Of a stretch of 64,000 nucleotides of DNA, positions 6,181 through 27,331 are shown piece by piece; position 1 is the first letter of the stretch; every line of letters starts with the position of its first letter. The position numbers were made by a program, and so were the translations under genes. The notes below the pieces were generated by a model. The model saw only the letters and a list, made by a program, of their open reading frames with translations, ran no database searches and had not been told where the DNA came from. The stretch lies in NCBI GenBank assembly GCA_965153355.1, contig OZ231126.1:28582001-28646000 (forward strand), in the 5' to 3' direction. The DNA comes from Flaccisagitta enflata. Its lineage: Eukaryota.

Positions 6181-6262
6181 GTCTCTTTGGTCTCGTATTA
6201 GGAGAGTTATCGTCCTTCTGTCTTTTGTTTTTAGCGGTCAATCACTCGAAAGCGGGTAACAA

Positions 6263-6905
6263 GTTAGGGTTAGGGTTTGAACCGAAAGCGAAATAGTGCT
6301 ATACTTTCTTATAACGCTAACCCTAACCCTAACCCTAACCCATGACGCTCATGAGCGTGTACATGCCGCTCACTTAGTGAAACATTAACCCTAACCCTAA
6401 CCCTAACCCTAACCTCCAAACCCTAACCCTAACCTCATTATCCAGCCTAACCTAACCTAACCTAACCCGAGAAACACAACCTAACCTAACCTAACTCTAA
6501 CCCGAGAAACAAAACCTAACCTAACCCTAACTCCTAACCCAAAACATAACCCTAACCCTAACCTAACCTAACCCGTACAACAGAAGTGCATTCGCGAATG
6601 GTTTAGAACAGCGAAATAGTGCTACTTTCTTATAACGCTAACCTAACTAACCCCAACCCATGACGCTCATGAGCGTGTACATGCCGCTCACTTAGTGAAA
6701 CATTAACCCTAACCTAACTGCCTAACCTCCAAACCTAACCCTAACCTCATTATCCAGCCTAACCTAACCTAACCTAACCCGAGAAACACAACCCCAACCT
6801 AACCCTAACCTAACCCGAAACATAACCCCTAACCTAACCCTAACCTAAAAACATAACCTAACCCTAACCCTAACCCTAACCCGTACAACAGAAGTGCATT
6901 CGCGG
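6263..6905 (-). repeat. Telomere-like (CCCTAA/CCTAA)n array with interspersed spacers; two ~320-bp higher-order copies
   Basis: Runs of CCCTAA/CCTAA broken by fixed spacers (ATGACGCTCATGAGCGTGTACATGCCGCTCACTTAGTGAAAC; GTACAACAGAAGTGCATTCGC), each present twice. Confidence 0.9.
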
Positions 6906-7246
6906 GAATGGGTTTGGTTTCATGCTAACGCCTTCTCTCGCCTAAGGCAACGATAGCGAGCTCACCACCGAGGCGGAGAGAAGCAGTCGGTCATCGGTAA
7001 AACCCTCGGATGGTCATTTCACCGGTGCCTGCGATCGGCCAATGGCCGAGGTAGTGAGTTTCTTTACTGGCACGCGGGGAAGCGGGTTATTTCGGTCAAG
7101 ACTCGCGCATGGTCACCGAGCCTCTCTTTTCAGCTTCACCCTCGTTTGACCGCTCCCGGTCACTACAACCGCGGGTCAATTTTCAACCACCGTTGGCCCG
7201 AGGAAGCAATATAAGGCAGGCGGCTGCCGAAGTTTCATTCTTCGCC

Positions 7247-9058
7247 ATGAAACAATTTACCTGTCCGGTCTGTAAACGCCAAGAGCCGTGTACGTATGAA
7301 GGCGAGAATAAAAAGCCCACCATCCATTTGAACGTTCCTTGGCAGGGCCTTCCGTTAACAGTCACAAGCTCCGGCGAACAGTGCTACCCATGCCCGCGCT
7401 GCGAACTCGACGAGAACGGCGAGTCAAAGATCCGAACATGGACCCAAGCCGAGCTTCGAATTCACAAACGCCTGCGGCAACATTTCACCCGCCACCATCA
7501 CGGCAAATTAGCCGATTTCTACACGCCCGAGGAGATAGTGAAATTTTATGATGACGCGCGTCGCCTAAGATGCGAATTGATCCACGGCCCCGAGATCGAG
7601 CAACGTGAAGAACCGCCAACCAATTCATCCAAGGCTGAAAGCCCGGAACCACCACCGAAGCGCGTTTGGAAAATTTCATTGACTCCGTCAACCAACATTA
7701 CCCTTCCTTCGAACTTTGAAGGGTGGCTCGCCGGGGAAGTGAGTAAACTCACCGCTAAAACGTATAGCGGAGTGATCCGAATATTTCTCGAATTTCAACA
7801 AGCCAAGGGCGCGAAAGGCACCTTAGCGGATGTTTGGGACTTCGACGCCGTCAAATTATTCTTGGATGAAAAGAAGAGCCAGGCCAAGCCGTCGACCCTC
7901 TTTAATTACTTTTTCGCTTTGCAATCGGCGCAAAAGTTCACTCAGCTTGAAGGGATCGCGGCACCAACAAAGCTCACGACGTTGAAGTTTGACTCTTTGG
8001 GAAAGCAACTTTGCCGGGCGAAGACGGCTCACTACAAGGTCATTGCTGCGGAAAAGCGCAAGAGCGGAATTAGTCTTCATCTCGTGAAAGAGAAGATCCT
8101 GGACGATCCCGCTCCTCGTACTCACTTCGACAAGCTCGTTCGTCAAGCTCAACAAGGGTTTTCGCTGACACCATCGGACTATCGCTGGGCGACGGGTTAC
8201 GCGGCGTTCAACTTGCAGGCGAGTAACTTTAAGCGGAACGGGAATCTCGCCAAAATCTCGTACGAAACAGCAATCAAGCGCCTCAAGGCTGCGTTGAGGA
8301 AGGGCACCTCTTGCGAACTTGAGGTAACCGAAGCGACTAAAACGGGCGGAACCGAGGTCTTCTCAGTCATCCATCGTGACCGTATCGAAATCCTTCTTCA
8401 TTACGGCAAATTCATCCGGGCCAAAACAGCGAGCGGCTGACAGGACCCCGCTTTCTTTCTCAACAGCGTCGGGAAAAGGATTACCCAACTCGCGCCGTTT
8501 ATCAAGGCCGTGGCAAAATCGGTCGGCCTACCTTCACTCACCATCAAAGATTTGAGGTCTCAAATTGAGACAGAGGCTGCGTTTCGAGGTGATTTAGTCG
8601 ACCGGGCAGAAATCGCCAGTCATCTCGCTCATACAGAGGCAACGCGGGATCGTCACTACCTCCTCAACGACCACAGGCGTAGTCGAAAGGCGGCAAAGGA
8701 GCTAATTATGCTCTTAGACCGCGCAGAACCCGATGCTACAATGGACACGGACTCGGACGATGCGCAGGAAAGCGACTCGGATGCAGAAGCCGTAAGAGAA
8801 TCGATCCCATCAACACCCACGGAGGATGCGGAGCCCACGGGGGAATCGAACCCTTCAACGTCCGCGGAAGACAGCACCGAACAACAGGAAAGCTCGCAAA
8901 TAGATCAAAGTGTCACCGAGGAACCCGCCAAACTACCAACAGATGATTCAAGCTCAACGCCTAAAGAAGAGAACTCTTCCGTCAACATCCGTCACCTTCG
9001 ACGCGGGCGGACCGTGACCTCGGAAATGAGGCCAAAGCCGAAGAAGAGACGTAGATGA
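7247..9058 (+). pseudogene. Zn-finger tyrosine recombinase, copy 1, disrupted by a nonsense codon
   Basis: Colinear with 12491-14302, but codon 398 CGA>TGA (8438-8440) splits it into the 443-aa and 182-aa ORFs and separates KDLR, His and Tyr from the rest. Confidence 0.85.
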
Positions 9059-9227
9059 TCGCGGTGTTTTTTATTTGTAATAGAACTTGCCTACGTTTGT
9101 CCTATCACTGTTTATTTGCCCCATTCAGTCTTGGTCAAAGCGGTGGAAAGCCGCAGTTTTCGTTTAACGGTCAATTTTTGCCATCTTTCGGGTATGGATC
9201 TAGCTAGATAACGAGGGTATCGGGTTT

Positions 9228-9876
9228 TCTCGTTCGAGTCGAAAGACGGCCATGCACCACCATTTGAGTACGCCAATCCTCGCGGAGTCTGCGCCGGGAT
9301 TAGGTTCCCGGTGTTGAGTCAAGTTAAGCCCAGAGGGTAGGGTTCATCCGTCAATTCCTTTAAGTTTCGCATCGTTATTGATCGTCACTACATCCCCGTG
9401 CCGGGGGTGGGTAATTTGCGTGCCTGCTGCCTTCCTTGGATGTGGTAGCCGTTTCTCATGCTCCCTCTCCGGAGTAGAACCCTTATTCCCCGCTACCCGT
9501 TATCACCACGGTAGGCCGGGCTCCTACCGTCAACAGTTGATAAGGCAGACATTTATTAGATCAGCCGCCGGCGCAAGGCCACGCGGTCAAGTGGAGTTAT
9601 CCAGAGTTCAAGGAGGTCGACCGCCACGGTCCAAGAACCGCGCTGCATAGGCTGGTCTTGAAGGGATAAAGACGTCGCGACCCTCCCGGGCCCCAACGGC
9701 GACAGGCATGTATTAGCTCTAGAATTACCACAGTTATCCAAACGTCACGTCCAAAGACGCGACCGAAGATCTAAGGAACCATAGCTGATTTAATGAGCTG
9801 TTCGCGGCTTAGCCATTTGGCGGCATGTGCTGACACTTGCATGGCTTAATCTTTGAGACAAGCATATGATCAACCA
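9228..9876 (-). pseudogene. Internally deleted 18S rRNA-derived sequence (mini-18S), copy 1
   Basis: Reverse complements of conserved SSU blocks in the correct order: TGCATGGCTTAATCTTTGAGACAAGCATATG; GCATGTATTAGCTCTAGAATTACCACAGTTATCC; GCCTGCTGCCTTCCTTGGATGTGGTAGCCGTTTCTCA; CCGTCAATTCCTTTAAGTTTC; GTGTTGAGTCAA.TTAAGCC; ACGGCCATGCACCACC. Only ~650 nt, no 3' minor domain. Confidence 0.9.
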
Positions 9877-10250
9877 AGAGAAACATCGAGAAGGAGGTGG
9901 GTCATCAAGTTGTAAGCACTTCGTGGAGGGATTGGAAGGGAAACAGAAGGAAAAAGAGAGCCTCTACCAGGTCCCACGAGCGTCACAAGATAGGACCAAT
10001 ACTGAGCTGATGCCGGCCAACACCGGCAACTACCGCTCCGGACATGGACAGGCTATGGACAGGCAAGGTAACAGACAGGCAAACATCGGACAAGGGTATG
10101 GCCACCACCAACCCCGCCTACCTCAGAGAGCAGGCATCGGTCAATCGGTCAACAGGGAGGGGCAGAGATAGCCGTGAGAGAGAGAGAGATAGAAAGAGGG
10201 AGGAATAGAGAGAAACAGAGAGAGGACAAGCGATCCCCCAATCCCTCAAA

Positions 10251-10381
10251 GAGCTGGAATTACCGTGGCTGCCTCGTTAGACCCGTATCATTATTGATCG
10301 TCACTACCTCGCGCTAGAAGTGGTAATTTGCGTGCCTGCTGCCTTCCTTGGATGTGGCTGCGGTTTCTCATGCTCCCTCTC
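10251..10381 (-). pseudogene. Second 18S rRNA-derived fragment, copy 1
   Basis: GAGCTGGAATTACCGTGGCTGC (530-loop region), then CGTCACTACCTC...GCCTGCTGCCTTCCTTGGATGTGG. Confidence 0.85.
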
Positions 10382-10665
10382 GGTTGCAGGGACCGAGTCG
10401 CTACCCCTCGCAAAAAACGGGGTGGGGTCGCATCGCTATCACCCCAGCCGCCTGGACAAGGGTGCTAGCCGGGACCCAGGAGAAGCGACAGGTCCATCGC
10501 GAGCCGATTTGAGGTGCGGCGACTCCCCGTGCTGCCAGCGAGGAATCGGGTTTCGGGTCTGAGAAAGCCCGTCGCGTTGTTTTCATAGCCTCAGCCGTGA
10601 GGCTCGCGTATATGCCTCTCCCGATGGATGGATCAATCCAGGTCGCCCCATCGACGGTCGCTCGT

Positions 10666-10933
10666 AGTGTCGAGGCTCGGTCCCGTCGCCAACCGATCCC
10701 CGCTGATTTTTCGCCCCTACGGTGCTGGTCGCGCTAGATGGCGGTGCATCGTCGCGGACCGAAGAAGCCCATCGCGCTGCCTCTCCTACCCTCGGTCTCT
10801 CGCAGTGTCGAGGCTCGGTCCCGTCGCCAACCGATCCCCGCTGATTTTTCGCCCCTACGGTGCTGGTCGCGAACAATGGCGGTGCATCGTCGCGGACGGA
10901 AGAAGCCCATCGCGCTGCCTTTCATACCCTCGG
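10666..10933. repeat. 138-bp direct tandem duplication inside the unit
   Basis: AGTGTCGAGGCTCGGTCCCGTCGCCAACCGATCCCCGCTG... at 10666 and 10804; also in copy 2 (~15913, ~16047). Confidence 0.9.
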
Positions 10934-11159
10934 CCAGGAAGCCCACTTCACTGCCCCTCCCGGAGAAAGGACGGGGCCGGGTCGTGTCGCCATCACCGGA
11001 GCCGCTTGGACAAGGGTGCTAGCCGGGACCCGCGGGTAGCGGTGAGACCGTCCGATGGTCTCTCTGGGCGGAAGGGAGGTCGCAGCGAATCCACCAGACC
11101 CGCCTCACCAGGTGAGCCGAGACCTCCCCTCCCTAGTAAGGGAATTCCGCGTGACAAGG

Positions 11160-11339
11160 GGGGCTAGCGGGGTTGAAATCCATTATGAAGCAATTTGGCT
11201 TCTGGGTGATATTGACAGGTCAATTTGACAAAAAGTCCCTGTATCTTTATACATATAAAGGCTATATAGAGCAAATCGGCCTGCCTATCTGACCAACAAA
11301 TGAAATCGCTTTAACATGGATTTCAACCCCGCTAGCCCC
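11160..11339. repeat. 24-bp perfect inverted repeat with ~130-bp AT-rich spacer
   Basis: GGGGCTAGCGGGGTTGAAATCCAT (11160-11183) / ATGGATTTCAACCCCGCTAGCCCC (11316-11339). Confidence 0.9.
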
Positions 11340-11386
11340 TCTTTTAACCCGGATCAAAAACGGGATCCCTTTATTTTCTATATAAA

Positions 11387-12131
11387 TTAGGGTTAGGGTT
11401 AGGGTTTGACTCACTTTGGAGGTACGTCCTTCTGAAACGAGTAAAAATGGGTTAGGGTTAGGGTTAGGGTTAGACTTCACTTTGGAGGTACATGTTGCGG
11501 GTTAGGGTTAGGGTTAGGGTTAGGGTTTGACTTCACTTTTGAGGTACGTCTGAAACAGTAAAAATGGGTTAGGGTTAGTTAGGTTAGACTTCACTTTGGA
11601 GGTACATGTTGCAGGTTAGGGTTAGGGTTAGGTTGACTTCACTTTTGAGGTACGTCCTTCTGAAACGAGTAAAAATGGGTTAGGGTTAGGGTTAGGGTTA
11701 GACTTCACTTTGGAGGTACATGTTGCGGGTTAGGGTTAGGGTTAGGGTTTGACTTCACTTTTGAGTACGTCTTCTGAAACAGTAAAATGGGTTAGGGTTA
11801 GGTTAGACTTCACTTTGGAGGTACATGTTAGGGTTAGGGTTAGGTTAGGGTTAGACTTCACTTTGAAGGTACATGTTATGGGTTAGGGTTAGGTTAGGTT
11901 AGGTTAGACTTCACTTTGGAGGTACATGTTGGGTTAGGTTAGGGTTAGGGTTAGGGTTAGACTTCACTTTGGAGGTACATGTTGCGGGTTAGGGTTAGGG
12001 TTAGGGTTAGGGTTGGACTTCACTTTGGAGGTATATGTTGCGGGTTAGGGTTAGGGTTAGGGTTAGGGTTGGATAAAGGGGTTAGGGTTAGGGTTGCGGG
12101 TTAGGGTTAGGGTTTGGGTTAACCCTAACCC
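11387..12131 (+). repeat. (TTAGGG)n array interleaved with two spacer types, ending in a GGGTT|AACCC palindrome
   Basis: Short TTAGGG blocks alternate with ACTTCACTTTGGAGGTACATGTTGCG or ACTTCACTTTTGAGGTACGTCCTTCTGAAACGAGTAAAAAT. Confidence 0.92.
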
Positions 12132-12451
12132 GTTGAGGTTCGTGAATGGGTTTGGTTTCATGCTAACGCCTTCTCTCGCCTAAGGCAACGATAGCGAGCT
12201 CACCACCGAGGCGGAGAGAAGCAGTCGGTCATCGGTAAAACCCTCGGATGGTCATTTCACCGGTGCCTGCGATCGGCCAATGGCCGAGGTAGTGAGTTTC
12301 TTTACTGGCACGCGGAGAAGCGGGTTATTTTCGGTCAAGACTCGCGCATGGTCACCGAGCCTCTCTTTTCAGCTTCACCCTCGTTTGACCGCTCCCGGTC
12401 ACTACAACCGCGGGTCAATTTTCAACCACCGTTGGCCCGAGGAAGCGGCGG

Positions 12452-12493
12452 TATAAAAGGCAGTCGGCTGCCGAAGTTTCATTCTTCGCCATG
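12452..12493 (+). promoter_or_regulatory. Pol II core promoter of the recombinase gene: TATA box, Inr, Kozak-like start
   Basis: TATAAAAG at 12452, TCATTC initiator with its A at 12481 (29 nt downstream), GCCATG start at 12491; CCAAT at ~12277. Confidence 0.6.
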
Positions 12494-14302
12494 AAACAAT
12501 TTACCTGTCCGGTCTGCAAACGCCAAGAGCTGTGTACGTATGAAGGCGAGAATAAAAAGCCCACCATCCATTTGAACGTTCCTTGGCAGGGCCTTCCGTT
12601 AACAGTCACAAGCTCCGGCAAACAGTGCTACCCATGCCCGCGCTGCGAACTCGACGAGAACGGCGAGTCAAAGATCCGAACATGGACCCAAGCCGAGCTT
12701 CGAATTCACAAACGCCTGCGGCAACATTTCACCCGCCACCATCACGGCAAATTAGCCGATTTCTACACGCCCGAGGAGATAGTGAAATTTTATGATGACG
12801 CGCGTCGCCTAAGATGCGAATTGATCCACGGCCCCGAGATCGAGCAACGTGAAGAACCGCCAACCAATTCATCCAAGGCTGAAAGCCCGGAACCACCACC
12901 GAAGCGCGTTTGGAAAATTTCATTGACTCCGTCAACCAACATTACCCTTCCTTCGAACTTTGAAGGGTGGCTCGCCGGGGAAGTGAGTAAACTCACCGCT
13001 AAAACGTATAGCGGAGTGATCCGAATATTTCTCGAATTTCAACGAGCCAAGGGCGCAAAAGGCACCTTAGCGGATGTTTGGGACTTCGACGCCGTCAAAT
13101 TATTCTTGGATGAAAAGAAGAGCCAGGCCAAGCCGTCGACCCTCTTTAATTACTTTTTCGCTTTGCAATCGGCGCAAAAGTTCACTCAGCTTGAAGGGAT
13201 CGCGGCACCAACAAAGCTCACGACGTTGAAGTTTGACTCTTTGGGAAAGCAACTTTGCCGGGCGAAGACGGCTCACTACAAGGTCATTGCTGCGGAAAAG
13301 CGCAAGAGCGGAATTAGTCTTCATCTCGTGAAAGAGAAGATCCTGGACGATCCCGCTCCTCATACTCACTTCGACAAGCTCGTTCGTCAAGCTCAACAAG
13401 GGTTTTCGCTGACACCATCGGACTATCGCTGGGCGACGGGTTACGCGGCGTTCAACTTGCAGGCGAGTAACTTTAAGCGGAACGGGAATCTCGCCAAAAT
13501 CTCGTACGAAACAGCAATCAAGCGCCTCAAGGCTGCGTTGAGGAAGGGCACCTCTTGCGAACTTGAGGTAACCGAAGCGACTAAAACGGGCGGAACCGAG
13601 GTCTTCTCAGTCATCCATCGTGACCGTATCGAAATCCTTCTTCATTACGGCAAATTCATCCGGGCCAAAACAGCGAGCGGCCGACAGGACCCCGCTTTCT
13701 TTCTCAACAGCGTCGGGAAAAGGATTACCCAACTCGCGCCGTTTATCAAGGCCGTGGCAAAATCGGTCGGCCTACCTTCACTCACCATCAAAGATTTGAG
13801 GTCTCAAATTGAGACAGAGGCTGCGTTTCGAGGTGATTTAGTCGACCGGGCAGAAATCGCCAGTCATCTCGCTCATACAGAGGCAACGTGGGATCGTCAC
13901 TACCTCCTCAACGACCACAGGCGTAGTCGAAAGGCGGCAAAGGAGCTAATTATGCTCTTAGACCGCGCAGAACCTGATGCTACAATTGACACGGACTCGG
14001 ACGATGCGCAGGAAAGCGACTCGGATGCAGAAGCCGTAAGAGAATCGATCCCATCAACACCCACGGAGGATGCGGAGCCCACGGGGGAATCGAACCCTTC
14101 AACGTCCGCGGAAGACAGCACCGAACAACAGGAAAGCTCGCAAATAGATCAAAGTGTCACCGAGGAACCCGCCAAACTACCAACAGATGATTCAAGCTCA
14201 TCGCCTGAAGAAGAAAACTCTTCCGTCAACATCCGTCACCTTCGACGCGGGCGGACCGTGACCTCGGAAATGAGGCCAAAGCCGAAGAAGAGACGTAGAT
14301 GA
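12491..14302 (+). CDS. Tyrosine recombinase (Crypton-like, intronless) with N-terminal Zn-finger region, acidic tail and C-terminal NLS, 603 aa
   Basis: CPVC and CPRC..HFTRHH motifs; integrase core-binding-like region (F.GWL..SKLTAKTY..KPSTLFNY); catalytic set R330 (FKRNGNL), K365 (TKTGG), K434xxR437 (IKDLR), H462 (LAH), Y471; FFLNSVGK box; PKPKKRRR terminus. Confidence 0.85.
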   Translation: MKQFTCPVCKRQELCTYEGENKKPTIHLNVPWQGLPLTVTSSGKQCYPCPRCELDENGESKIRTWTQAELRIHKRLRQHFTRHHHGKLADFYTPEEIVKFYDDARRLRCELIHGPEIEQREEPPTNSSKAESPEPPPKRVWKISLTPSTNITLPSNFEGWLAGEVSKLTAKTYSGVIRIFLEFQRAKGAKGTLADVWDFDAVKLFLDEKKSQAKPSTLFNYFFALQSAQKFTQLEGIAAPTKLTTLKFDSLGKQLCRAKTAHYKVIAAEKRKSGISLHLVKEKILDDPAPHTHFDKLVRQAQQGFSLTPSDYRWATGYAAFNLQASNFKRNGNLAKISYETAIKRLKAALRKGTSCELEVTEATKTGGTEVFSVIHRDRIEILLHYGKFIRAKTASGRQDPAFFLNSVGKRITQLAPFIKAVAKSVGLPSLTIKDLRSQIETEAAFRGDLVDRAEIASHLAHTEATWDRHYLLNDHRRSRKAAKELIMLLDRAEPDATIDTDSDDAQESDSDAEAVRESIPSTPTEDAEPTGESNPSTSAEDSTEQQESSQIDQSVTEEPAKLPTDDSSSSPEEENSSVNIRHLRRGRTVTSEMRPKPKKRRR

Positions 14303-16592: not shown

Positions 16593-16637
16593 TTTTAACC
16601 CGGATCAAAAACGGGATCCCTTCATTTTCTATATAAA

Positions 16638-17743: not shown

Positions 17744-19495
17744 AATTGGTTTATCCCGACTTAAAGAACAATTATTCCACCAACCTTCTGAAACTAACTA
17801 CAGAACCCCCCCTGTGAGAAGCTCTTCAACCTGTAAGAGGCACCGCAGGGGGCCCCCAATCGCCGTCATTAAGCCCAAAGTGGACTCAAAACAACCAACA
17901 ACAAGAGGAGATCCCGAGACTTGGCCCAATCAAGGGCTGTCAAGGGCAAACACCGGGCCGGTCCAGCGCCTTGGAGATAGGCAGAAAGGAGGGTCTGGTG
18001 CAGGAACCAGCACCCACCCCATTGGGTGAGCCAGACACGAGAGTGACAGACTCATAAACTGACACTTTCTTCACCTCCAGACCGACCAACTGACATAACA
18101 GCTTTAAAACTATGTCATTTCATCTTGTTGTTTTCCCTGCCATTTTTATCCACATGTGATCGGCTACAAACGTCTCCTGAGAGCCAACACCATCGACCTG
18201 CGATCCCAGACCTGTCAAGGAGGTCAACCACTTCGAGCTGCATCGCATCCCACCCTCCAACCGATCGTCAGCAGCCTCAACATCGCCGGCGACAGTTACA
18301 TCAGTTTAACTGCAACAACAGCTTTATTCTGCAACTACAAACGGCTCTCGAACGAAAACGACATCGCCAATCGACTTGAAACGTGGCATGGTAGTCGACC
18401 AACTCGAACTGCATCACACTGCATCCTCCATTCGATTCCGACGGGCCTCCAACACCTCGTCGACGCCCCCCTCAGTCTAACAACAACAAACTGCATCCAT
18501 CAACTTTGAAAGGCTCTCGAACCCAGAGTTCTCAATGGATCGTTATGAAACCGACTGAGGACGTTCATCACATCGAGGACCAACAGCTCGAGCCTTCAGA
18601 TCGACTCCGACACGCCTCCAACGCCTCGTCGTCGACCCCATCGCATCGGCAACTTCGACGAGCCGCTGCGCAGCCGCCTGTTTACTGACGATCACAAAAC
18701 TCACCAGGGACATCCCCAGACACGCTGGGTACAACATCCAACAGTTTCCAAACCTCCTCGTCCACCAGCTTCGCGACGGCACCCTCGAGTCCACCAGGAA
18801 GCACTTCTTGAAGGAAGCGGCTGCAGACGCCAAACCACTTCATTTAGGAACGAACAAAGCAGCTAAAAGCTTCATCCTCACCTCCTCTACGATCTCCAAC
18901 AGTCACCACGGCTCCGACACAACGCATTCTCGCCGTGGGCGCCTCTGTAATCGACGACCTCTTCCAATGCTTCCACAACTTTAATGAAATTCAACTTCAA
19001 TCGTCCATATCTCTGGAACCGCTTGGCCAATTTCGATGAGCTTTTGCATGGTGATACAACTCGACTTCCTCTACAACATCGAATCATCAGCAACATCATT
19101 TCTCAACGTTCTCGCTCATCTCCTCATTTAGCTCAGCTTGAGCTAGTTGTTATCTTTGTTACATATGTGCCAGTGTCATTGCACATAGTCTACATCGTGT
19201 TAATGTGTCATTTATCGATTCTACAACTACACAAAAGTGTAAACAAGTGTCTCTACTCATCCTCATCATCTTTAGATCGAATCTAAAGAGTTTTACATCG
19301 AATTCTAAGAGTTGACATCGAATCTCCGCCTATTCTCAATTGCCTTCGATCTCTCTTTGTTCCTGCTTCTCTCATGTGACATGTGACATGTGACAAATCC
19401 TTTTGTCTCTTCTCTGGAACCGAGATCGCGATCTCGAGCTCGTGACAAGTTTAAAACTAAAACCAAAATCATGATCATCATCCAAAGCCATTCAA

Positions 19496-20842: not shown

Positions 20843-23800
20843 ACTCGGCCGTCTCCCCCAACAACAGAAACAGCGATTTGTTATTTGTTCACGACGCTGG
20901 CGACCAACGTAGATGGCTCATTGATGGAGGCGCCGTGCTCTCCATAATGCCCCCAACCATGGCACAACGTCTCAAAGGTCCAACAGAGGCCCAATTGCAA
21001 GCAGCAAATGGCACCAGGATCGCATGTTATGGGGTGAGTCTCGAAACTATCACACTAGCTGACAGGCAGATTTCGTTTCCAATCACCATAGCTGACGTTA
21101 AACAGCCAATTTTGGGGGCTGATTTTCTAGCCCATTCATTTCTAGCTCCCAATCATCGTGATGGGACCCTAATAGACTTGAAAGACTATTCTGTTTTGAA
21201 GGCAAATTTTGACAATGACTCAGAGCCCATCAGAATAAACTACGTTGACCAAGCCACTGACCCTTATTATCAGTTATTGGACCGTTACCCAACCCTTTCA
21301 AATCCATCATTTCGAGTGAAGGAAGTTGAACATGGAGTAACTCATCACATCCCCACTGACGGACCACCAGTTCAGTCCAGAGCCAGGAAATTATCCCCAG
21401 AGAAGCTCGCGGTGGCCAAGGCAGAAATAGAAAAATTGGTTGAATTAGGCGTTTGTCAGAGAGGCAAGAGTGAGTGGTCGTCGCCACTGCTTGTCACAAC
21501 CAAGCCTTGTAGTAGCCCATGTACTTGCGAACAAGAGAGTCCATGTGGAGGATGGAGAGTATGTGGTGATTACCGCAGATTGAATGCTATGACGACTACC
21601 GACAGATATCCTGTAAGAAATCTGACAGACTTCAACAATGAACTTCGCGGAATGAAATATTTCAGCAAAGTAGATCTCCTAAAAGGGTATCACCAGATAC
21701 CCGTGTTCTCAGAACACATAAGGAAGACAGCAGTTATCACTCCATTTGGTTTATATGTCTTTCCACGATGTCCTTTTGGCCTGAAAAATGCAGGCCAGGA
21801 CTTTCAACGTCTAATGGACCAAATACTAGGAGATATTCCCCATACCTTTGTCTACTTGGATGATGTGTTGATCGCATCTGCCACCAAGGAAGAGCACCTC
21901 GAGGATCTCGAGAGGGTCTTTAAGATCCTAGCAGAGAATGGCCTTGTAATCAACAGGAAGAAATGCATCCTGGGAGCTTCCTCAGTTGAGTTTCTTGGCC
22001 ATCTTGTCGACGCCGATGGCATCCGTCCTCTTCCTGAAAAAGTAGAGGCCATCCGCAAAGTCAAGCCTCCAACATCTGTCAAGGAGCTGAGACGCTTCCT
22101 TGGCATGGTAAATTATTACCGACGATTTGTTCAAGCTGCTGCTCATCATCTCTATCATCTTTTCGACGCTCTCAAAGCAAGTCCAAAGAGATTAGGATGG
22201 ACTGAAGACATGCAGTTATCATTTGATGCTATTAAAGATGCCCTCGCTAATTCTACCATGCTGCACCACCCTGACTCAAGCCTGCCTCTAGCCATTACTA
22301 CCGACGCTTCTGACGTTGCTATGGGGGCTGTCATTGAGCAGAGGGGCCCCAAAGGATGGGAGCCGTTGGCCTTTTGGTCGAAAAAGTTCTCTGATACACA
22401 GCAAAACTGGTGTCCTTATGACAGGGAGCTGAATGCAGCACACAAGGCCATACGTCATTTCAAATATATGGTAGAAGGACGTCCTTTTACACTTTACACT
22501 GACCATCAGAGTTTAGTGCCATCAATCCACAAAAAGACAGATGCACCAACTTCGCGACAAATGAATCAATTAAGTGAGATCGCGGAATACACAACCGACA
22601 TTAGATACTTAGAAGGCAAAAGCAACTTCGTAGCCGATGCTTTATCAAGGCCAAACGGAGAAATCTCAACCAAAAAGCCTTCCAGCATCTCCAACGTCTC
22701 AACTGCATCTCAACATGGTCGTCATCTCTTTCTACTGCAGCTTGATCTTCTAAAAAATCAACCTGACATCTCTTCCATCACTCCAGCTCAATGGTGGACA
22801 ACAGACGATCAACCTGATGTCTCTGCAATCTCCACAATGCAAGATCCTTCAGCAACCGCATCCGCTGCAACAGCTCCAGCTGCTCGTCAAAAGAGAGTCT
22901 CTTTTGCTTCCCCAGTCACGCAGACAGATGTCAGACAGAGCCAAAAGCAATTATTTTCATCTCTATGGGAAGAATTAGCTGATTTTGATGTCCAATTCAA
23001 AAATGAAGCAAAATCCTCCAAGAGCAGCTTCTCAAGCCTCTCGTCGACCAACGGCTCACCCAGGAACCTTCAAAATGGCCATGCCGTCACATCTCCACCT
23101 GCTGAACACGATGGTACTGTCAAAACAACAATCCAACATGGTCTTGTGGATCCGATGCTGAGTCAAAGGTTATGCAACAACAAAAACATCAAAAATGCAT
23201 CACTTGACGAGCCACTGCGGCCGAACGCCTCGAGATCAACCTCTGAAACTGGTCAAGCATGTACATCTGAACAAGATCTATCAAACGCGACCATCCGCGG
23301 GTCTCTAGCTCAAACCGTTCTCACTCCAGAGCCTTTCAAAGCTGAAAAAGCCAAAATTGCATCAGACAGGGGTCTAGATAATGCAGCAACTACGCTAATT
23401 TTGCAATTTCCCGGCCACAAAGGACATCTGAAAGTTAAAAATTTTCTACCTCACAGTTCTCGACACGCCGGATCCAATGGCGACGTCCGCGGGCACGTAA
23501 CTATGGCGGTTTCGGAGAAAAAGAGCGAAAACAACCAAATTTTTGCACACAGGGCTCCAGAAAGTGCAGCAAATGTAGCATTTACTCAATTTCTCGACGA
23601 CAAAAAGCCTCAGAAGCTTGAAAATTTGCTATCTGACAGTCTTCGCCATGCCGAATCCATTGGCGAGGTCCGTGGGCACACAGATCCAACCGTTTTTGAG
23701 ATAAACACCGAAACAGGCGAAAATTCCTCAAAAAAAGTCCCTGATCATAAGATAGAAGAGCTGCAAGCCGTTGTAAACGCTATCGATCACTACAACATTG

Positions 23801-25584
23801 ACATGGAGGAACTAGCGCACCAACAAACGTTGGACCCAGACTTCCGTCAACTTGTCAGAGACGCCCATACCGGTCTCCAGTTTAGGAAAATTCCTATAGG
23901 TGACACATACATATACGTGGATGTTTCCAACGGTCCTGCCAGGCCTTTTGTGCCGCTCAACTTCCGCCGCAGAGTATTCGACGTTATCCATGGCCTCGGC
24001 CACCCTGGTGTCCAAAGGACGAAACAATCAGTTTCAGCCAAATTTTGCTGGCCAGGACTCGCAAGAGATGTCGCACAATGGGCAAGAGAGTGTATGGCCT
24101 GTCAGCGCGCGAAAATCAATCGACACACAGTGCCTCCCATTCAAGACTTTGCCGTGCCGCACAAGAGATTCGCTCACGTCCACGCAGACTTGGTCTCTAT
24201 GCCAATTTCAAACGGAAACAATCATCTTCTCACAATTATAGATCGTTTCACACGTTGGCCCGTCGCCATACCTATCCCGGATATTACCGCAGAAACTATT
24301 GTCGACGCTTTCGCTCATCATTGGGTCGCCACATACGGGGTTCCTGAAGTGATAACGACAGACAGGGGAAGCCAGTTCGTGTCTCAGACTTGGACCCAAT
24401 TGTTAAATACTTGGGGAACAAAACATATTACAACAACAGCGTATCACCCCGAGGCGAACGGGATGGTTGAGAGATTGCATAGGCGTCTCAAAGAGAGTTT
24501 GATCGCTTTGGGCCAAGACCAAAGAAACGATTGGTTTTGGAAGCTGCCAATGACCATGTTGGCCCTTCGCACCACAATCAAGCCGGATTTAGGAGCTTCT
24601 CCATCGGACCTCGTATATGGTGAAGGCCTTACTGTACCAGGCCAATTGGTGGGGTTGCCTGAGATGAACGACGACGAGTTGCTGCGACAGCAACGAGGAT
24701 CTTTAGCAAATCTCAGATTGGAAGTCGAAAGATTGCAACCCAAGCCCACCTCCCATCACAGGCGTCCAAATGTCCATGTCCCAGAGGATCTTGCGACGGC
24801 TACGCATGTATTAGTGAGACGAGGTTTACAACCTTCCATGACGGCTCCTTATGACGGTCCTTACCGCGTCCTCGCGAGAAACAGAGACAATTTCCGCATC
24901 CAGTTTCCGGGCAGAGGATCGGACACGGTAGCAATCGCCAGACTCAAGCCAGCTTTCGTTTCCAGAGACGATATCGCAGCAGCGGAGCGTCAAGAGCAAG
25001 ATCTCGAAGATCAGGTCCCTCCGTCTCCTCCACCTCCTGGCAGACGTCCGGGAGTCCGCACTCGCATTCCCGACCCGACTTCACGAGTAACTCGCAGCCA
25101 ATCAGCGCAGAGTCGACAGCAGCCTACAGCTTCTTCGTCCAACTCGAATGCAAATGAGCCTCTCCGTCGGCGCAATCCTGCGCCAGTTCCAGCCGCTGCT
25201 CCTCCGAGAAGGCGCAGATTTCACAAGACGTTCCACGACTTCGACGATCCAAACGATTCACAGGCAGTGGATCCTAATCCAGCCAACCCAGAACCGTTCT
25301 TCTTAGTCCCGGGCCCCGATGCCCCGGCGCCTCCCGATACGAATCTTCCAACCGATCCTTCTCTTCCGAACGACCGAGAAACAATTGTCGTCAATGACGC
25401 TTTCTTAAACGCGCATCACAGCAGCGCCGCCGAACAGCGCGCCGCAGAACAAGACTCGCGTGCCTCTAGTCAAGGGGGCGCACAGCGCAAGAAAACATTT
25501 TCGAACCCTAAGCCGGGCAATTTTTCGTACAGGCGTCGTAGACTGGATGTCTCCGCGTTACAACAAATTCTTAAGTCATTATAA
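20716..25584 (+). CDS. pol: Pol polyprotein (PR-RT-RNase H-integrase) of Gypsy A, entered by -1 frameshift near 20818
   Basis: LIDGGA protease, [21 protein letters not shown] RNase H, H-H-C-C zinc finger, D..D(TDRGSQF)..E integrase, GPY motif. Confidence 0.96.
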   Translation: MQMASTIWSEVNKMCYRLFSVSVFPLSTTTRLGKRPGGTPTVNSAVSPNNRNSDLLFVHDAGDQRRWLIDGGAVLSIMPPTMAQRLKGPTEAQLQAANGTRIACYGVSLETITLADRQISFPITIADVKQPILGADFLAHSFLAPNHRDGTLIDLKDYSVLKANFDNDSEPIRINYVDQATDPYYQLLDRYPTLSNPSFRVKEVEHGVTHHIPTDGPPVQSRARKLSPEKLAVAKAEIEKLVELGVCQRGKSEWSSPLLVTTKPCSSPCTCEQESPCGGWRVCGDYRRLNAMTTTDRYPVRNLTDFNNELRGMKYFSKVDLLKGYHQIPVFSEHIRKTAVITPFGLYVFPRCPFGLKNAGQDFQRLMDQILGDIPHTFVYLDDVLIASATKEEHLEDLERVFKILAENGLVINRKKCILGASSVEFLGHLVDADGIRPLPEKVEAIRKVKPPTSVKELRRFLGMVNYYRRFVQAAAHHLYHLFDALKASPKRLGWTEDMQLSFDAIKDALANSTMLHHPDSSLPLAITTDASDVAMGAVIEQRGPKGWEPLAFWSKKFSDTQQNWCPYDRELNAAHKAIRHFKYMVEGRPFTLYTDHQSLVPSIHKKTDAPTSRQMNQLSEIAEYTTDIRYLEGKSNFVADALSRPNGEISTKKPSSISNVSTASQHGRHLFLLQLDLLKNQPDISSITPAQWWTTDDQPDVSAISTMQDPSATASAATAPAARQKRVSFASPVTQTDVRQSQKQLFSSLWEELADFDVQFKNEAKSSKSSFSSLSSTNGSPRNLQNGHAVTSPPAEHDGTVKTTIQHGLVDPMLSQRLCNNKNIKNASLDEPLRPNASRSTSETGQACTSEQDLSNATIRGSLAQTVLTPEPFKAEKAKIASDRGLDNAATTLILQFPGHKGHLKVKNFLPHSSRHAGSNGDVRGHVTMAVSEKKSENNQIFAHRAPESAANVAFTQFLDDKKPQKLENLLSDSLRHAESIGEVRGHTDPTVFEINTETGENSSKKVPDHKIEELQAVVNAIDHYNIDMEELAHQQTLDPDFRQLVRDAHTGLQFRKIPIGDTYIYVDVSNGPARPFVPLNFRRRVFDVIHGLGHPGVQRTKQSVSAKFCWPGLARDVAQWARECMACQRAKINRHTVPPIQDFAVPHKRFAHVHADLVSMPISNGNNHLLTIIDRFTRWPVAIPIPDITAETIVDAFAHHWVATYGVPEVITTDRGSQFVSQTWTQLLNTWGTKHITTTAYHPEANGMVERLHRRLKESLIALGQDQRNDWFWKLPMTMLALRTTIKPDLGASPSDLVYGEGLTVPGQLVGLPEMNDDELLRQQRGSLANLRLEVERLQPKPTSHHRRPNVHVPEDLATATHVLVRRGLQPSMTAPYDGPYRVLARNRDNFRIQFPGRGSDTVAIARLKPAFVSRDDIAAAERQEQDLEDQVPPSPPPPGRRPGVRTRIPDPTSRVTRSQSAQSRQQPTASSSNSNANEPLRRRNPAPVPAAAPPRRRRFHKTFHDFDDPNDSQAVDPNPANPEPFFLVPGPDAPAPPDTNLPTDPSLPNDRETIVVNDAFLNAHHSSAAEQRAAEQDSRASSQGGAQRKKTFSNPKPGNFSYRRRRLDVSALQQILKSL
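20812..20862 (+). promoter_or_regulatory. -1 ribosomal frameshift signal, Gypsy A
   Basis: In-frame G GGA AAC slippery heptamer (20812-20818) followed by hairpin GGGGGGACG..CGTCTCCCCC. Confidence 0.8.
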
Positions 25585-25929
25585 AAGACACGTCGAATGT
25601 GTGACAGAGGCGCTCCTCTATAAATATGTTACTCATTTCTATGAAGTAGAATGTCCGTTATGTAGTTTTGGCTATGTTTATTTCTTTTTTACCTTTTGCC
25701 GTGTGGTTAGGTATAAATACTTTTACTCGTTCAAGTAGAATGTATCCTGCTCACCATTTTCGTTAGCATGTGCCGTTTAACCCCGTCGAGTGGACCCGCC
25801 ACTATAAAAGGTTACCTTTATTTCATTTTTATTCCGTCGAGTGGACCCGCCACTATAAAAGGTTACTTTTTTTTATTTTTACTCTCGCTCTCCGTTACTG
25901 CCACTCGATGCCTCACAGTCTAGGGGGCG

Positions 25930-26720
25930 TGTAGGTTTTGTTAGGTTTATTACTTTCTAAACCATGTACTTTACCTTGTTCCATATATAGCACAATAATC
26001 TCATTAGCATATTGTGGTAATATTATGGCGTAGAATGATAGCCCGGCTCATGCCCTTTCATTTGATATATCGCTCCGCCTTTTCCTATGTACGGTTTCCG
26101 AGTTATGGGTACTTTTGTATTACCACCCCAGGGGTATCTCAGGGGTACCTCAGCTTTCATTGGGTTACCCCCCCATGGTCGACATATCAACCGGCCTCTC
26201 GTATAAACCTTAGCTAAAGGCGACCTCAAATCTGGGGTCCGTTTGCCCCTATCTCCAGCCATTTAGCCGGTACTGCCCCTGCCCTTATCTGGGACTCTGC
26301 CTCTGGTTTTCTTGAGCAGCCCAGATGCTCTTTTATCTCGATGCCAATCTCGCTATATAGAGGGCAGCATTGTTCCGCTGTCCTTCAGTTATATTGCTCC
26401 TTTGTTTGGGTCTCCATTCCCCTCTCTAGTCATGTGACCCAAAACTGTCATGGCAGCCTCCTTGCACCGAGCCGGAGGGACTGCCAACCTGAGGAAAGTA
26501 TTCCATTCATTCTGGTTCTTTCTCCTTGGTCTTGAAGGCCACATGTTTTATGTCTCTGAATAAATGCCTAGGCAAAAGCCAGGCTCATCTGTGGACTTGT
26601 GTTTTATTTAAGGCCAAGAGCCTTTGTATTCACCTATGTACCCCAAGGGTACTTGTGGTAATTCTCACGATTACATTGGGGCTGGATTGGAGTCTCCAGC
26701 CCACTTGTGGTACACCTACA
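25930..26720 (+). repeat. 3' LTR of Gypsy A
   Basis: Follows the PPT; followed by TSD AGAC. Confidence 0.97.
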
Positions 26721-27311
26721 AGACTTCACTTTGGAGGTACATTTTGCGGGTTAGGGTTAGGGTTAGGGTTTGACTTCACTTTTGAGGTACGTCCTTCTGA
26801 AACGAGTAAAAATGGGTTAGGGTTAGGGTTAGGGTTAGACTTCACTTTGGAGGTACATGTTGCGGGTTAGGGTTAGGGTTAGGGTTAGGGTTTGACTTCA
26901 CTTTTGAGGTACGTCCTTCTGAAACGAGTAAAAATGGGTTAGGGTTAGGGTTAGGGTTAGACTTCACTTTGGAGGTACATGTTGCGGGTTAGGGTTAGGG
27001 TTAGGGTTAGACTTCACTTTGGAGGTACATGTTGCGGGTTAGGGTTAGGGTTAGGGTTAGGGTTAGGGTTAGGGTTAAGGTTAGACTTCACTTTGGAGGT
27101 ACATGTTGCGGGTTAGGGTTAGGGTTAGGGTTAGGGTTAGACTTCACTTTGGAGGTACATGTTGCGGGTTAGGGTTAGGGTTAGGGTTAGGGTTGGACTT
27201 CACTTTGGAGGTATATGTTGCGGGTTAGGGTTAGGGTTAGGGTTAGGGTTGGATAAAGGGGTTAGGGTTAGGGTTGCGGGTTAGGGTTAGGGTTTGGGTT
27301 AACCCTAACCC
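26721..27311 (+). repeat. TTAGGG/spacer array of copy 2, right part, ending in the GGGTT|AACCC palindrome
   Basis: Terminal ~150 bp match those of the copy 1 array. Confidence 0.92.
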
Positions 27312-27331
27312 GTTGAGGTTCGTGAATGGGG

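What the first reader, a model, noticed from the sequence alone, without database searches (positions are those of the whole stretch)
6263..27331. Candidate new mobile element class: telomere-capped tyrosine-recombinase unit carrying a miniaturised 18S rRNA
Seen: a ~5.2-kb unit in head-to-tail tandem (starts 6906, 12144, 27324) combining one intronless Zn-finger/tyrosine-recombinase gene, convergent 18S-derived sequences, an inverted repeat and a TTAGGG array. It has no RT, no DDE transposase and no LTR, and I found no TSD. Known: Cryptons are YR-only DNA transposons thought to move through circles; R1/R2/Pokey insert into rDNA rather than carrying it; some herpesviruses use terminal TTAGGG arrays to integrate. 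I know of no described element uniting a YR, rRNA cargo and telomeric ends. Inference: an autonomous element or episome that circularises or concatemerises through telomeric ends and carries an rRNA-mimic RNA.
Basis: partly seen in the sequence, partly recalled or inferred. Interest (0 to 1): 0.92.

Follow-up and report, generated by a model that had tools for sequence, protein, structure and literature searches.

The report
Telomere-flanked tyrosine-recombinase repeat with 18S scraps
A 5.2-kb repeat from a marine eukaryote carries one tyrosine-recombinase gene, scrambled pieces of 18S rRNA and outward-facing telomere-like arrays, and appears very abundant in one sequenced organism; it looks like an unusual Crypton-like mobile element, but movement is not shown.

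Summary
The window has two full head-to-tail units (6903-12140 and 12141-27320, 98% alike) and a ~10-nt stub of a third. Unit 2's array is split by a young Ty3/gypsy-type LTR retrotransposon, and a second one cuts off unit 3.

Each unit has one intronless gene: a Cys/His-rich N-terminal domain plus a Cre/Xer-fold tyrosine recombinase. It also has minus-strand 18S pieces (model positions 1-478 joined to ~1140-1350, plus a second fragment), an 82-nt-arm inverted repeat and a composite TTAGGG array. A CCCTAA/CCTAA array lies to the left, so telomeric repeats face outward on both sides.

- The recombinase family is real and conserved: 73 relatives, invariant R-K-R-H-Y, and dN/dS about 0.3 among read variants.
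- Both window copies are damaged, mostly by CpG transitions.
- The 18S part diverges at the same rate as other non-coding sequence, so nothing supports a functional rRNA mimic.
- Contig depth in one organism's DNA run implies roughly 3% of that run.
- Four distant relatives show neither 18S nor telomeric arrays.

Best reading (0.5): a lineage-specific, high-copy, Crypton-like recombinase-only element. Mobility, circular forms and episomes remain untested.

The parts
5810..6188 (-). Outer-left 58-66-nt tandem repeats carrying three inverted copies of the right-array motif CACTTTGGAGGTA
   Evidence: TRF rows. Motif matches on the minus strand at 6046, 6104 and 6162, against 25 plus-strand matches in the right arrays; 29 matches in all, shuffles mean 1.8.
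6263..6902 (-). Left composite array: CCCTAA and CCTAA blocks with unique spacers, as two ~320-bp subunits (6284-6604 and 6606-6915, 90% alike)
   Evidence: 9 minus-strand hexamer dimers and 6 minus-strand (CCTAA)3.
6903..12140 (+). Unit 1 (body plus right array)
7247..9058 (+). Recombinase gene, copy 1, with a premature stop at codon 398 (8438-8440, CGA>TGA)
9200..9880 (-). Mini-18S, copy 1: SSU model positions 1-478 (lacking ~17-33) joined to ~1140-1350 with further deletions
10250..10385 (-). Second 18S-derived piece, copy 1. By eye it extends to the 530-loop motif; that motif is recalled, not from a call.
   Evidence: 10284-10381 is 85% like 9368-9469; sequence read.
10655..10933 (.). 138-nt tandem duplication, copy 1 (copy 2: 15902-16176)
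11146..11353 (.). Long inverted repeat with 82-nt arms, 77% complementary, and an AT-rich 44-nt centre; copy 2 at ~16389-16604
11356..12121 (+). Right composite array 1: (TTAGGG)3-4 blocks alternating with 26-48-nt spacers, periods 50/56/66/110
12109..12155 (.). Unit 1/unit 2 junction: head-to-head GGGTTA|ACCCTAACCC followed by gttgaggttcgtgaatgggtttgg. The same junction recurs at 27289-27331.
   Evidence: Junction-type contigs are present in X1, X7 and X17 but run on into other sequence after 12155.
12452..12459 (+). TATAAAAG box 32 nt upstream of the ATG, followed by TCATTC (initiator-like). This promoter is inferred, not shown.
   Evidence: Sequence read. The consensus motifs are recalled.
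12491..14302 (+). Recombinase gene, copy 2: open, 603 aa, but with R467W beside the catalytic Tyr471
14444..15127 (-). Mini-18S, copy 2
   Evidence: Rfam hit 14626-15103; offsets.
16607..16952 (+). Right array 2, proximal part
16953..26720 (+). Secondary insertion: LTR retrotransposon with 791-nt LTRs (8 mismatches), a 4-bp target duplication AGAC, gag 19496-20842 and pol 20722-25584 (PR-RT-RH-IN)
26721..27331 (+). Right array 2, distal part, then the junction and a ~10-nt stub of unit 3
27332..36500 (+). Second, related LTR retrotransposon (gag 30467-31621, pol 31552-36072). Its 3' LTR starts at 36328 and is cut off near 36500, so the rest of unit 3 is lost.

Best explanation
This is a lineage-specific, very high-copy DNA repeat built around a single autonomous-looking gene for a Cre/Xer-type tyrosine recombinase. 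In kind it is a Crypton-like, recombinase-only element.

The gene sits behind a TATA/initiator-like promoter and has no introns. Its product has three parts: a Cys/His-rich N-terminal domain of unmatched fold, a SAM-like core-binding domain, and a catalytic domain with R330, K365, R437, H462 and Y471.

The most likely mode of spread is inferred, not shown. The recombinase, or plain homologous recombination between neighbouring units, excises a monomer circle in which the TTAGGG-side array abuts the CCCTAA-side array. Re-integration into repeat-like or telomere-like tracts, together with unequal exchange, then builds head-to-tail clusters such as this one. I read the repeated CACTTTGGAGGTA-type motifs in the arrays as candidate protein-binding sites.

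The 18S pieces are most likely passenger DNA, or a relic of an old association with rDNA, not a working RNA.

The two chromosomal copies in this window are decaying under CpG mutation, while the family elsewhere keeps the reading frame under selection.
For: Shown:
- Recombinase fold: Foldseek XerA E 5e-4 and Cre E 1.2e-3; VIA gives Cre Z 12.8 with 269 residues aligned, XerH 11.3 and lambda Int 10; the profile hits XerA at E 2.7e-4.
- R330, K365, R437, H462 and Y471 are invariant in 28 of 28 aligned homologues at 22-84% identity.
- Family size: 31 relatives in the 90%-clustered library. Among 1.84 billion representatives, 73 score E<=1e-3 and 17 score E<=1e-30. The window's own 90% cluster has 94 members, of which 15 were listed, 11 of them 603 aa.
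- No RT, DUF3435 or DUF3504 in 28 close and 39 distant relatives. Phage_integrase was found in 2 of 28 and 6 of 39. No longer fused relatives were found.
- Selection: ORF divergence between the copies is 13 of 1812, against 49 of 2648 in the other non-array non-coding body, Fisher p=0.0016. Read variants are 13 synonymous and 14 non-synonymous over 413 S and 1396 N sites, dN/dS about 0.32.
- Abundance and spread: 20 of the 24 listed runs, from 11 studies, hold the unit or part of it; 13 hold half or more of its words. Single contigs in run X7 have word depth 6100-7300 in a 1182-Mb run.
- A real chromosomal locus: an LTR element sits inside the array with an AGAC duplication.
- A small 2-3-unit cluster embedded in ordinary repeat-rich DNA fits integration of a concatemer.
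- Body CpG observed/expected is 1.13 against 0.65 in 37000-64000. Yet 29 of the 62 differences between copies are CpG transitions. This suggests the source copies are young or shielded from methylation.
Against: - No insertion polymorphism, empty site, target duplication or circle junction was seen.
- The cluster's right edge is destroyed and no genome is held.
- Both window copies carry damaging changes: a stop at codon 398 in copy 1 and R467W in copy 2.
- Between the two copies the ORF shows 4 synonymous and 9 non-synonymous changes, which is near neutral.
- Animal Cryptons are described as lacking terminal repeats (PMC3212892, section 8, read). Array-flanked units at this abundance are not typical of the kind.
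- The protein matches no Crypton-linked Pfam model.
- High copy number and head-to-tail order are equally what a satellite would show.
- RNA-library contigs also cover 12160-12474, upstream of the presumed promoter, so they may be DNA carry-over.
Confidence: 0.5

Rival explanations
1. It is a satellite-like host repeat. One ancient Crypton-type insertion next to rDNA and telomere-like sequence became part of a 5.2-kb unit. That unit is now amplified only by unequal crossing-over or replication slippage, and the recombinase plays no part.
For: - Strict head-to-tail order with identical junctions at 12109-12155 and 27289-27331.
- Very high depth in run X7, with many short variant contigs: 149 laid, of which 100 are >=99% alike, 43 are 95-99% and 6 are 90-95%.
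- Both window ORFs are damaged.
- The 18S part and other non-coding parts evolve alike.
- Of 4 distant relatives, 0 share the 18S or telomeric parts.
Against: - The ORF is 2.6 times less diverged than the non-coding body (p=0.0016), and read variants give dN/dS about 0.32.
- Of the 15 cluster members listed, 11 are distinct full-length 603-aa variants.
- The catalytic residues are invariant across the family.
- The window shows only a 2-3-unit cluster inside non-satellite DNA.
- The body is not CpG-depleted although the host DNA around it is.
Confidence: 0.22
2. It is an extrachromosomal replicon, either a linear mini-chromosome capped by telomeric repeats at both ends or its circular form. 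The recombinase resolves or amplifies copies, in the manner of FLP in the yeast 2-micron plasmid or a telomere resolvase acting on the head-to-head TTAGGG|CCCTAA junction. The chromosomal cluster in this window would then be an integrated concatemer.
For: - Telomeric repeats face outward on both sides of the body.
- The usual upstream flank in X1, X7 and X14 is the CCCTAA-side junction.
- The junction GGGTTAACCC is palindromic.
- Depth suggests about 3% of one DNA run.
- Body CpG observed/expected is 1.13 against 0.65 for the surrounding DNA.
- rDNA-derived spacer-like repeats and an AT-rich-centred long inverted repeat could serve as an origin. That role is inference.
Against: - Nothing here shows free ends or circles, and contigs cannot show them.
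- The arrays are composite, with at most 6 perfect hexamers in a row, unlike a functional telomere.
- The many diverged variant contigs in X7 look like genomic copies.
- The fold is plain Cre/Xer type, and no protelomerase appears among the 50 VIA rows, though that absence is inconclusive.
- The window copies are chromosomal, hit by retrotransposons and decaying.
Confidence: 0.12
3. It is a subtelomere-type tandem repeat carrying a host or domesticated recombinase gene. This would be analogous to yeast Y' elements, which sit in tandem separated by internal telomeric repeats. That comparison is recalled, not tested.
For: Telomere-like tracts lie between units; there is one conserved ORF per unit with its own promoter-like sequence; copy number is high.
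Against: - The cluster lies at least 5.8 kb and 27 kb from the window ends, inside ordinary DNA.
- Each body has an oppositely oriented array on its left, which a simple subtelomeric stack would not give.
- Relatives at 34-44% identity have quite different flanks, as mobile elements do.
Confidence: 0.1
4. It is an assembly artefact or chimera that joins unrelated repeats.
For: Repeats of this kind are hard to assemble, and no reads of the assembly itself were available.
Against: - Two units are 98% alike with scattered private differences.
- An LTR element has a clean 4-bp duplication inside the array.
- Independent runs from several studies carry contigs collinear with 12144-14460.
Confidence: 0.03

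Closest known systems
Crypton DNA transposons (recombinase-only eukaryotic elements; Kojima & Jurka 2011, PMC3212892, sections 5 and 8 read)
   Same: A single tyrosine-recombinase gene with no RT and no DDE transposase. It is found in marine animals among other hosts and is proposed to move through a circle.
   Different: - Animal Cryptons are reported without terminal repeats, and others have only 4-6-bp direct repeats. This unit is bracketed by hundreds of bp of oppositely oriented telomere-like arrays.
- It carries 18S pieces, sits head-to-tail, and appears to make up a large share of one organism's DNA.
- No Pfam DUF3435 or DUF3504 signal in 67 family members.
- It has an extra N-terminal Cys/His domain.
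DIRS / Ngaro / PAT recombinase-encoding retrotransposons
   Same: They use a tyrosine recombinase, have unusual terminal structures and tend to form clusters.
   Different: There is no RT or RNase H ORF in the unit. No longer fused relatives were found. No ITR-plus-internal-complementary-region layout is present.
Yeast 2-micron plasmid with FLP (recalled)
   Same: A small multicopy unit encoding a tyrosine recombinase and flanked by inverted repeats. FLP matches the model at Z 9.1.
   Different: The best structural matches are Cre and Xer rather than FLP. Episomal status is unknown, and the left and right arrays share only telomeric repeats.
Yeast Y' subtelomeric elements and telomere-attached retroelements such as Athena/Terminons, and ciliate TBE1 elements with telomeric repeats at their ends (all recalled)
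   Same: Telomeric repeats sit between or at the ends of repeated units that each carry one ORF.
   Different: Those encode a helicase, an RT or a DDE transposase, not a tyrosine recombinase. Here the repeats face outward on both sides, and the locus is interstitial within the window.
rDNA-associated elements (R1/R2, Pokey; Starships that target 5S rDNA) (recalled; Starship papers seen only in search listings)
   Same: An association between a mobile element and ribosomal RNA gene sequence.
   Different: Those insert into working rDNA units. Here a deleted, rearranged 18S remnant travels inside the unit, with no intact rDNA beside it.

Membership tests
Tyrosine recombinase superfamily (Cre/Xer/lambda Int type) | Two-domain fold: a helical core-binding domain plus a catalytic domain | tested here: met
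   AF2 model pLDDT 79. Foldseek: XerA 5e-4 and Cre 1.2e-3. VIA: Cre Z 12.8 with rmsd 4.3 over 269 residues (154-466), XerH 11.3, IntI 10.9.
Tyrosine recombinase superfamily (Cre/Xer/lambda Int type) | Catalytic Arg, Lys, Arg, His/Trp and the Tyr nucleophile | tested here: met
   R330, K365, R437, H462 and Y471 are invariant in 28 of 28 sequences. The usual His three residues before the second Arg is Lys434 here. Window copy 2 has W at the nearly invariant R467.
Tyrosine recombinase superfamily (Cre/Xer/lambda Int type) | Recombination activity on a defined site | not testable with these tools
   A scan for inverted arms >=10 nt with spacers 0-10 nt found no convincing core site.
Crypton | Encodes a tyrosine recombinase and no RT or other transposase | tested here: met
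   There is only one credible ORF per unit. No RT was found in 28 close and 39 distant relatives. No longer relatives were found (weak evidence).
Crypton | Recombinase groups with CryptonA/F recombinases (Pfam DUF3504 / DUF3435 similarity) | tested here: not met
   0 of 28 members at E<=1 and 0 of 39 at E<=0.01 match either model. The Atlas lists DUF3435 clusters only at score 0.91, rank 12-13. CryptonI and CryptonS have no model to test against, and no reference Crypton sequences were available for a tree.
Crypton | No long terminal repeats; at most 4-6-bp direct repeats at the ends | tested here: not met
   The body is flanked by a 640-bp CCCTAA-type array and a 770-bp TTAGGG-type array in opposite orientation. 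The true element ends are not defined.
Crypton | Dispersed copies at different loci (mobility) | tested here: inconclusive
   No genome is held. The window holds one cluster. The loose ends lie inside array-type sequence.
DIRS/Ngaro retrotransposons | RT/RNase H gene beside the recombinase; ITR+ICR or split direct repeats | tested here: not met
   The only RT in the span belongs to the inserted LTR element, which has its own LTRs and target duplication.
Protelomerase / telomere resolvase | Resolvase-type fold acting on a palindromic junction to make hairpin ends | tested here: inconclusive
   A palindromic GGGTTAACCC junction exists. No protelomerase chain appears among the 50 VIA rows or the listed Foldseek rows, but a family that is not listed is not excluded.
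Functional small-subunit rRNA or structured rRNA mimic | Complete domains, or conservation above the neutral level | tested here: not met
   The central domain (~479-1140) and everything after ~1350 are absent, and a duplicated fragment lies out of order. Divergence is 12 of 680 against 37 of 1968 in other non-coding sequence, p=1. Only two copies were compared, so the power is low.
Satellite DNA | Head-to-tail units in high copy number | tested here: met
   Long uninterrupted arrays were not observable in this window.

The most novel reading that the evidence does not exclude
The unit is a self-maintaining mini-replicon of a marine animal. It would exist as a linear or circular extrachromosomal molecule whose ends are telomeric-repeat arrays. 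It would be kept at thousands of copies with help from its own tyrosine recombinase, through resolution of head-to-head telomere junctions or FLP-like amplification. It would use rDNA-derived spacer and promoter sequence for replication or nucleolar residence, and now and then integrate as concatemers such as this locus. That would be a eukaryotic plasmid-like element of a kind not described in animals.
Probability: 0.12. Interest if true: 0.92.

Novelty: new variant of a known kind. Interest (0 to 1): 0.62.

Why it matters
Recombinase-only elements are the least understood eukaryotic transposons. Their ends, target choice and intermediates are mostly guesses.

This one is unusually tractable. 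It has an intact conserved gene, defined candidate binding motifs repeated in oppositely oriented arrays, a palindromic telomere-repeat junction, and enough copies that circles or linear forms should be easy to detect.

If the recombinase acts on telomere-like repeats, it would link site-specific recombination to telomere biology in an animal. If the unit is only a satellite, it is still a rare case of a multi-kilobase satellite whose units keep a protein gene under selection.

It also shows how rDNA scraps can be carried around a genome, which matters for 18S-based surveys of marine plankton. The unit's 5' 18S domain is well enough preserved to score 330 bits against the eukaryotic SSU model.

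Tried and rejected
- Whole-genome search and laying the genome: not possible, because no genome is held.
- Related-locus scans with the 28-sequence alignment failed because it has no conserved stretch. I repeated them with a closer 15-sequence alignment. The metagenome scan gave 147 pattern matches, of which 4 encode relatives. The viral scan gave 65 pattern matches and 0 relatives.
- The 4 loci (1.6-3.8 kb, 34-44% identity) show no SSU match at E<=0.01 and no (TTAGGG)3. L001's downstream 1.3 kb shows none even at E<=10.
- The 13-nt 18S-type motif GGCCATGCACCAC occurs once in L001, 345 nt after the stop codon (0 of 200 shuffles). It occurs 190 nt after the stop in both window copies, and not in L003. 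This is a post-hoc lead only.
- N-terminal domain (residues 1-125, pLDDT 89): no fold match (Foldseek best E 0.29; VIA-wide best Z 3.8) and no Atlas lead above 0.89.
- Search for longer fused homologues: none found (weak evidence).
- No tRNA genes in 5500-28000.
- The bacterial promoter/terminator scan is irrelevant here.
- No second conserved ORF: the arginine-rich 179-183-aa frames over the 138-nt repeats look spurious.
- Core-site palindrome scan: nothing convincing.
- Earlier findings of this scan: none.
- RNA libraries. X14 contigs cover 24 of 30 bins and X17 covers 8 of 30. The uncovered bins, and the covered stretch upstream of the promoter, cannot be interpreted, so transcription is not shown.
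- No protelomerase appears among the VIA rows. This is an absence only.
- Literature searches found no paper joining a tyrosine recombinase or Crypton with telomeric-repeat termini and 18S cargo. One search was badly framed and useless. Repbase and Dfam could not be searched. Supplementary files were not consulted.

Full report
WHAT IS THERE

The window is eukaryotic and no whole genome is held for it. It is rich in microsatellites and retroelements.

Between 5810 and about 36500 lies a cluster built from a ~5.24-kb unit. Direct-repeat families have spacings of 5238-5251 nt. BLASTN aligns 6903-11704 with 12141-16953 at 97.8% over 4827 columns, and 11586-12140 with 26721-27320 at 91.8%. A 20-nt probe from the start of the body occurs only twice in the window. 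There are therefore two full units. The third 'start' at 27324 is a stub of about ten bases.

Unit 2 is interrupted in its terminal array by a complete LTR retrotransposon (16953-26720):
- Its LTRs are 791 nt long and differ at 8 positions.
- It has a clean 4-bp target duplication, AGAC.
- Its gag and pol have Pfam RVT_1, RNase H, rve and Integrase_H2C2 domains.

A second, related LTR element starts at 27332, right after the stub. Its 3' LTR is cut off near 36500, so the original right edge of the cluster is gone.

These insertions show that the arrangement is a real chromosomal locus and that the arrays predate the retroelements.

ANATOMY OF A UNIT (PLUS STRAND)

1. Left array. In unit 1 this is a 640-bp composite array of CCCTAA and CCTAA blocks with unique spacers (6263-6902). 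In units 2 and 3 it is reduced to 12 nt.
2. About 350 nt of unique sequence, ending in a TATAAAAG box 32 nt before the ATG. The promoter reading is my inference.
3. An intronless ORF of 603 aa.
4. 18S-derived sequence on the minus strand, starting about 145 nt after the stop codon.
5. A 138-nt tandem duplication.
6. An inverted repeat with 82-nt arms and an AT-rich centre.
7. Right array, about 770 bp. Blocks of (TTAGGG)3-4 alternate with 26-48-nt spacers that carry the motif CACTTTGGAGGTA.

All 71 TTAGGG dimers in the 64-kb window lie in these arrays, against none in 100 shuffles. Nine of the ten in the left array are on the minus strand. All 61 in the right arrays are on the plus strand. The telomeric repeats therefore face outward on both sides of the body, as on a linear chromosome.

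The arrays are not pure telomere: the longest perfect run is six hexamers.

At the unit 1/unit 2 junction the arrays meet head to head (GGGTTA|ACCCTAACCC). The same junction recurs before the stub of unit 3.

Further left, at 5810-6188, 58-66-nt repeats carry three inverted copies of the right-array motif. The cluster as a whole is therefore bounded on the left by inverted array-type sequence.

THE PROTEIN

Pfam finds nothing at E<=0.1, but the family is real:
- 31 relatives in the 90%-clustered library.
- 73 at E<=1e-3 among 1.84 billion representatives, of which 17 are at E<=1e-30.
- All are unnamed and come from environmental assemblies.

A 28-sequence alignment has invariant R330, K365, R437, H462 and Y471. 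Its profile hits archaeal XerA at E 2.7e-4.

An AlphaFold model (pLDDT 79) matches XerA and Cre by Foldseek. By VIA it matches Cre at Z 12.8 over 269 residues, then XerH, integron integrase, Tn1549 Int and lambda Int. FLP and type IB topoisomerases score lower.

Of 28 close and 39 distant relatives, none has an RT, DUF3435 or DUF3504 match. Two and six respectively match Phage_integrase. A search among longer proteins found nothing (weak evidence).

The first ~120 residues form a confidently predicted Cys/His-rich domain (pLDDT 89). It has no structural or Atlas match, and the distant relatives lack it.

The Atlas places the whole protein nearest to unnamed eukaryotic clusters whose few classified members are chordate, arthropod or cnidarian. 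DUF3435 clusters appear further down the list, at score 0.91.

THE 18S PART

Rfam's eukaryotic SSU model scores 320-330 bits on the minus strand of each unit.

Given more room, the alignment runs from the very 5' end of 18S:
- Model positions 1-478 are present, lacking about positions 17-33.
- It then jumps over the central domain to about 1140-1350, with further deletions.
- It ends about 145 nt from the recombinase stop codon.

A second fragment lies 370 nt upstream on the same strand. It is 85% like part of the first.

'Miniaturised 18S' is thus a fair description, but the sequence is a rearranged remnant. Between the two units it differs at 12 of 680 positions. That is the same rate as the other non-array non-coding sequence (37 of 1968, p=1), whereas the ORF differs at 13 of 1812 (p=0.0016 against all non-coding).

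With only two copies this test has low power. Still, nothing points to a constrained RNA.

STATE OF THE COPIES AND OF THE FAMILY

- Copy 1 has a CGA>TGA stop at codon 398.
- Copy 2 is open but has R467W beside the catalytic tyrosine.
- The two ORFs differ by 4 synonymous and 9 non-synonymous changes.
- Of 62 substitutions in the unit bodies, 42 are transitions and 29 are CpG-type.
- The body's CpG observed/expected ratio is 1.13, against 0.65 in the host DNA at 37000-64000.

The resident copies are therefore decaying in the way methylated repeats do. The family sequence itself, however, has not equilibrated to the host's CpG depletion.

Variants seen in public runs split 13 synonymous to 14 non-synonymous over 413 and 1396 sites, giving dN/dS of about 0.32.

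ELSEWHERE

Twenty of the 24 listed public runs, from 11 studies, hold the unit or part of it, and 13 hold at least half of its sampled words. Most are labelled marine metagenome, and two are DNA runs of a coded organism A.

I laid four runs on 12122-14460:
- Single contigs of organism A's run X7 have word depths of 6100-7300 in a run of 1182 million letters.
- If word depth approximates read depth, a 5.24-kb unit would take roughly 3% of that run. This is a rough inference, not a copy number.
- X7 also gives 149 mostly short contigs (100 at >=99%, 43 at 95-99%, 6 at 90-95%), which indicates many variant copies.
- In X1, X7 and X14 the sequence upstream of the body is the unit-1 type, continuing into the CCCTAA side.
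- The short unit-2 type junction also occurs, but it runs on into other array-like sequence.
- RNA-library contigs cover much of the ORF: X14 in 24 of 30 bins and oligo-dT run X17 in 8 of 30. They also cover 12160-12474, upstream of the presumed promoter, so DNA carry-over is not excluded.

Four related metagenome contigs at 34-44% protein identity have different flanks, some with long palindromes. None of the four has an SSU match or a (TTAGGG)3 run. They are short and distant. Contigs of closer relatives could not be fetched.

INTERPRETATION

The simplest account is a lineage-specific, high-copy, Crypton-like recombinase-only element whose chromosomal copies decay after insertion.

Shown:
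- the enzyme family;
- selection on the gene;
- the unit architecture;
- the outward-facing arrays;
- the abundance;
- the secondary retroelement insertions.

Inferred:
- excision as a circle;
- use of array motifs as binding sites;
- re-integration as concatemers.

The rivals are a pure satellite, a plasmid-like linear or circular replicon, and a subtelomere-type repeat. Each is weighed in its own section. None is excluded.

COMPARISON WITH PRINT

Kojima & Jurka 2011 (PMC3212892; outline, find passages and sections 5 and 8 read) describe animal Cryptons as single-recombinase elements without terminal repeats. They also note that Crypton groups may have arisen independently.

A 2026 paper on CryptonA elements (PMC13465315, passages only) restates that Cryptons lack TIRs and have 4-6-bp direct repeats.

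Five full-text searches found no description of a recombinase-only element with telomeric-repeat arrays and rRNA pieces. Repbase and Dfam could not be queried, so an existing entry cannot be ruled out.

The comparisons with Y' elements, the 2-micron plasmid, TBE1, Athena/Terminons, R2/Pokey and herpesvirus telomere integration are recalled knowledge, not tests.

VERDICT

I rate it a new variant of a known kind. There is a modest chance (about 0.12) that it is something categorically new, namely a telomere-ended replicon with its own recombinase.

Noticed in passing
window 16953-26720 and 27332-36500: Two related Ty3/gypsy-type LTR retrotransposons sit in or right next to the telomere-like arrays, at GGGTTAGAC| and GAATGGG|. 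The first is complete, with 99% identical LTRs and an AGAC duplication. The second has a truncated 3' LTR. Two hits in one small cluster may hint at a preference for G-rich telomere-like targets.
   Followed up: partly
window 6903-11355 versus 12141-16606: Of 62 substitutions between the unit bodies, 29 are CpG-type transitions, including the stop in copy 1 and R467W in copy 2. Yet the body's CpG observed/expected ratio is 1.13, against 0.65 in flanking host DNA.
   Followed up: partly
window 6446-6881: The left array mixes CCCTAA hexamers with CCTAA pentamers (6 matches of (CCTAA)3, longest run 4). The right arrays are almost purely hexameric. The host's own telomere motif is unknown.
   Followed up: no
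L001 2823-2835; window 9248-9260 and 14492-14504: The 18S-type 13-mer GGCCATGCACCAC lies downstream of the recombinase gene in a 43%-identical relative that otherwise has no detectable 18S similarity. It could be a conserved site, or chance.
   Followed up: partly
L002 145-178; L003 1347-1368; window 6342-6364 and 6659-6681: Perfect or near-perfect palindromes containing GAGCG/CGCTC lie near the recombinase genes of two relatives and in each left-array subunit of the window. They are candidate recombinase sites, untested.
   Followed up: no
window 12491-12865 (protein residues 1-125): A Cys/His-rich N-terminal domain is conserved in the close family (C6, C9, C49, C52, H73, H79, H84, C109). It is predicted with confidence but has no match in PDB or the Atlas.
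   Followed up: yes
window 57343-58815 (minus) and 39785-41134 (plus): The open frame at 57343-58815 has a zf-RVT match (E 3.7e-6) and is probably a remnant of a non-LTR retrotransposon. The frame at 39785-41134 has no Pfam match.
   Followed up: partly
window 1-5800 and 36800-64000: The flanks carry an exceptional load of long microsatellites, for example (CA)163, (AG)96, (AAC)113, (AGAG)163 and (TTG)89.
   Followed up: no
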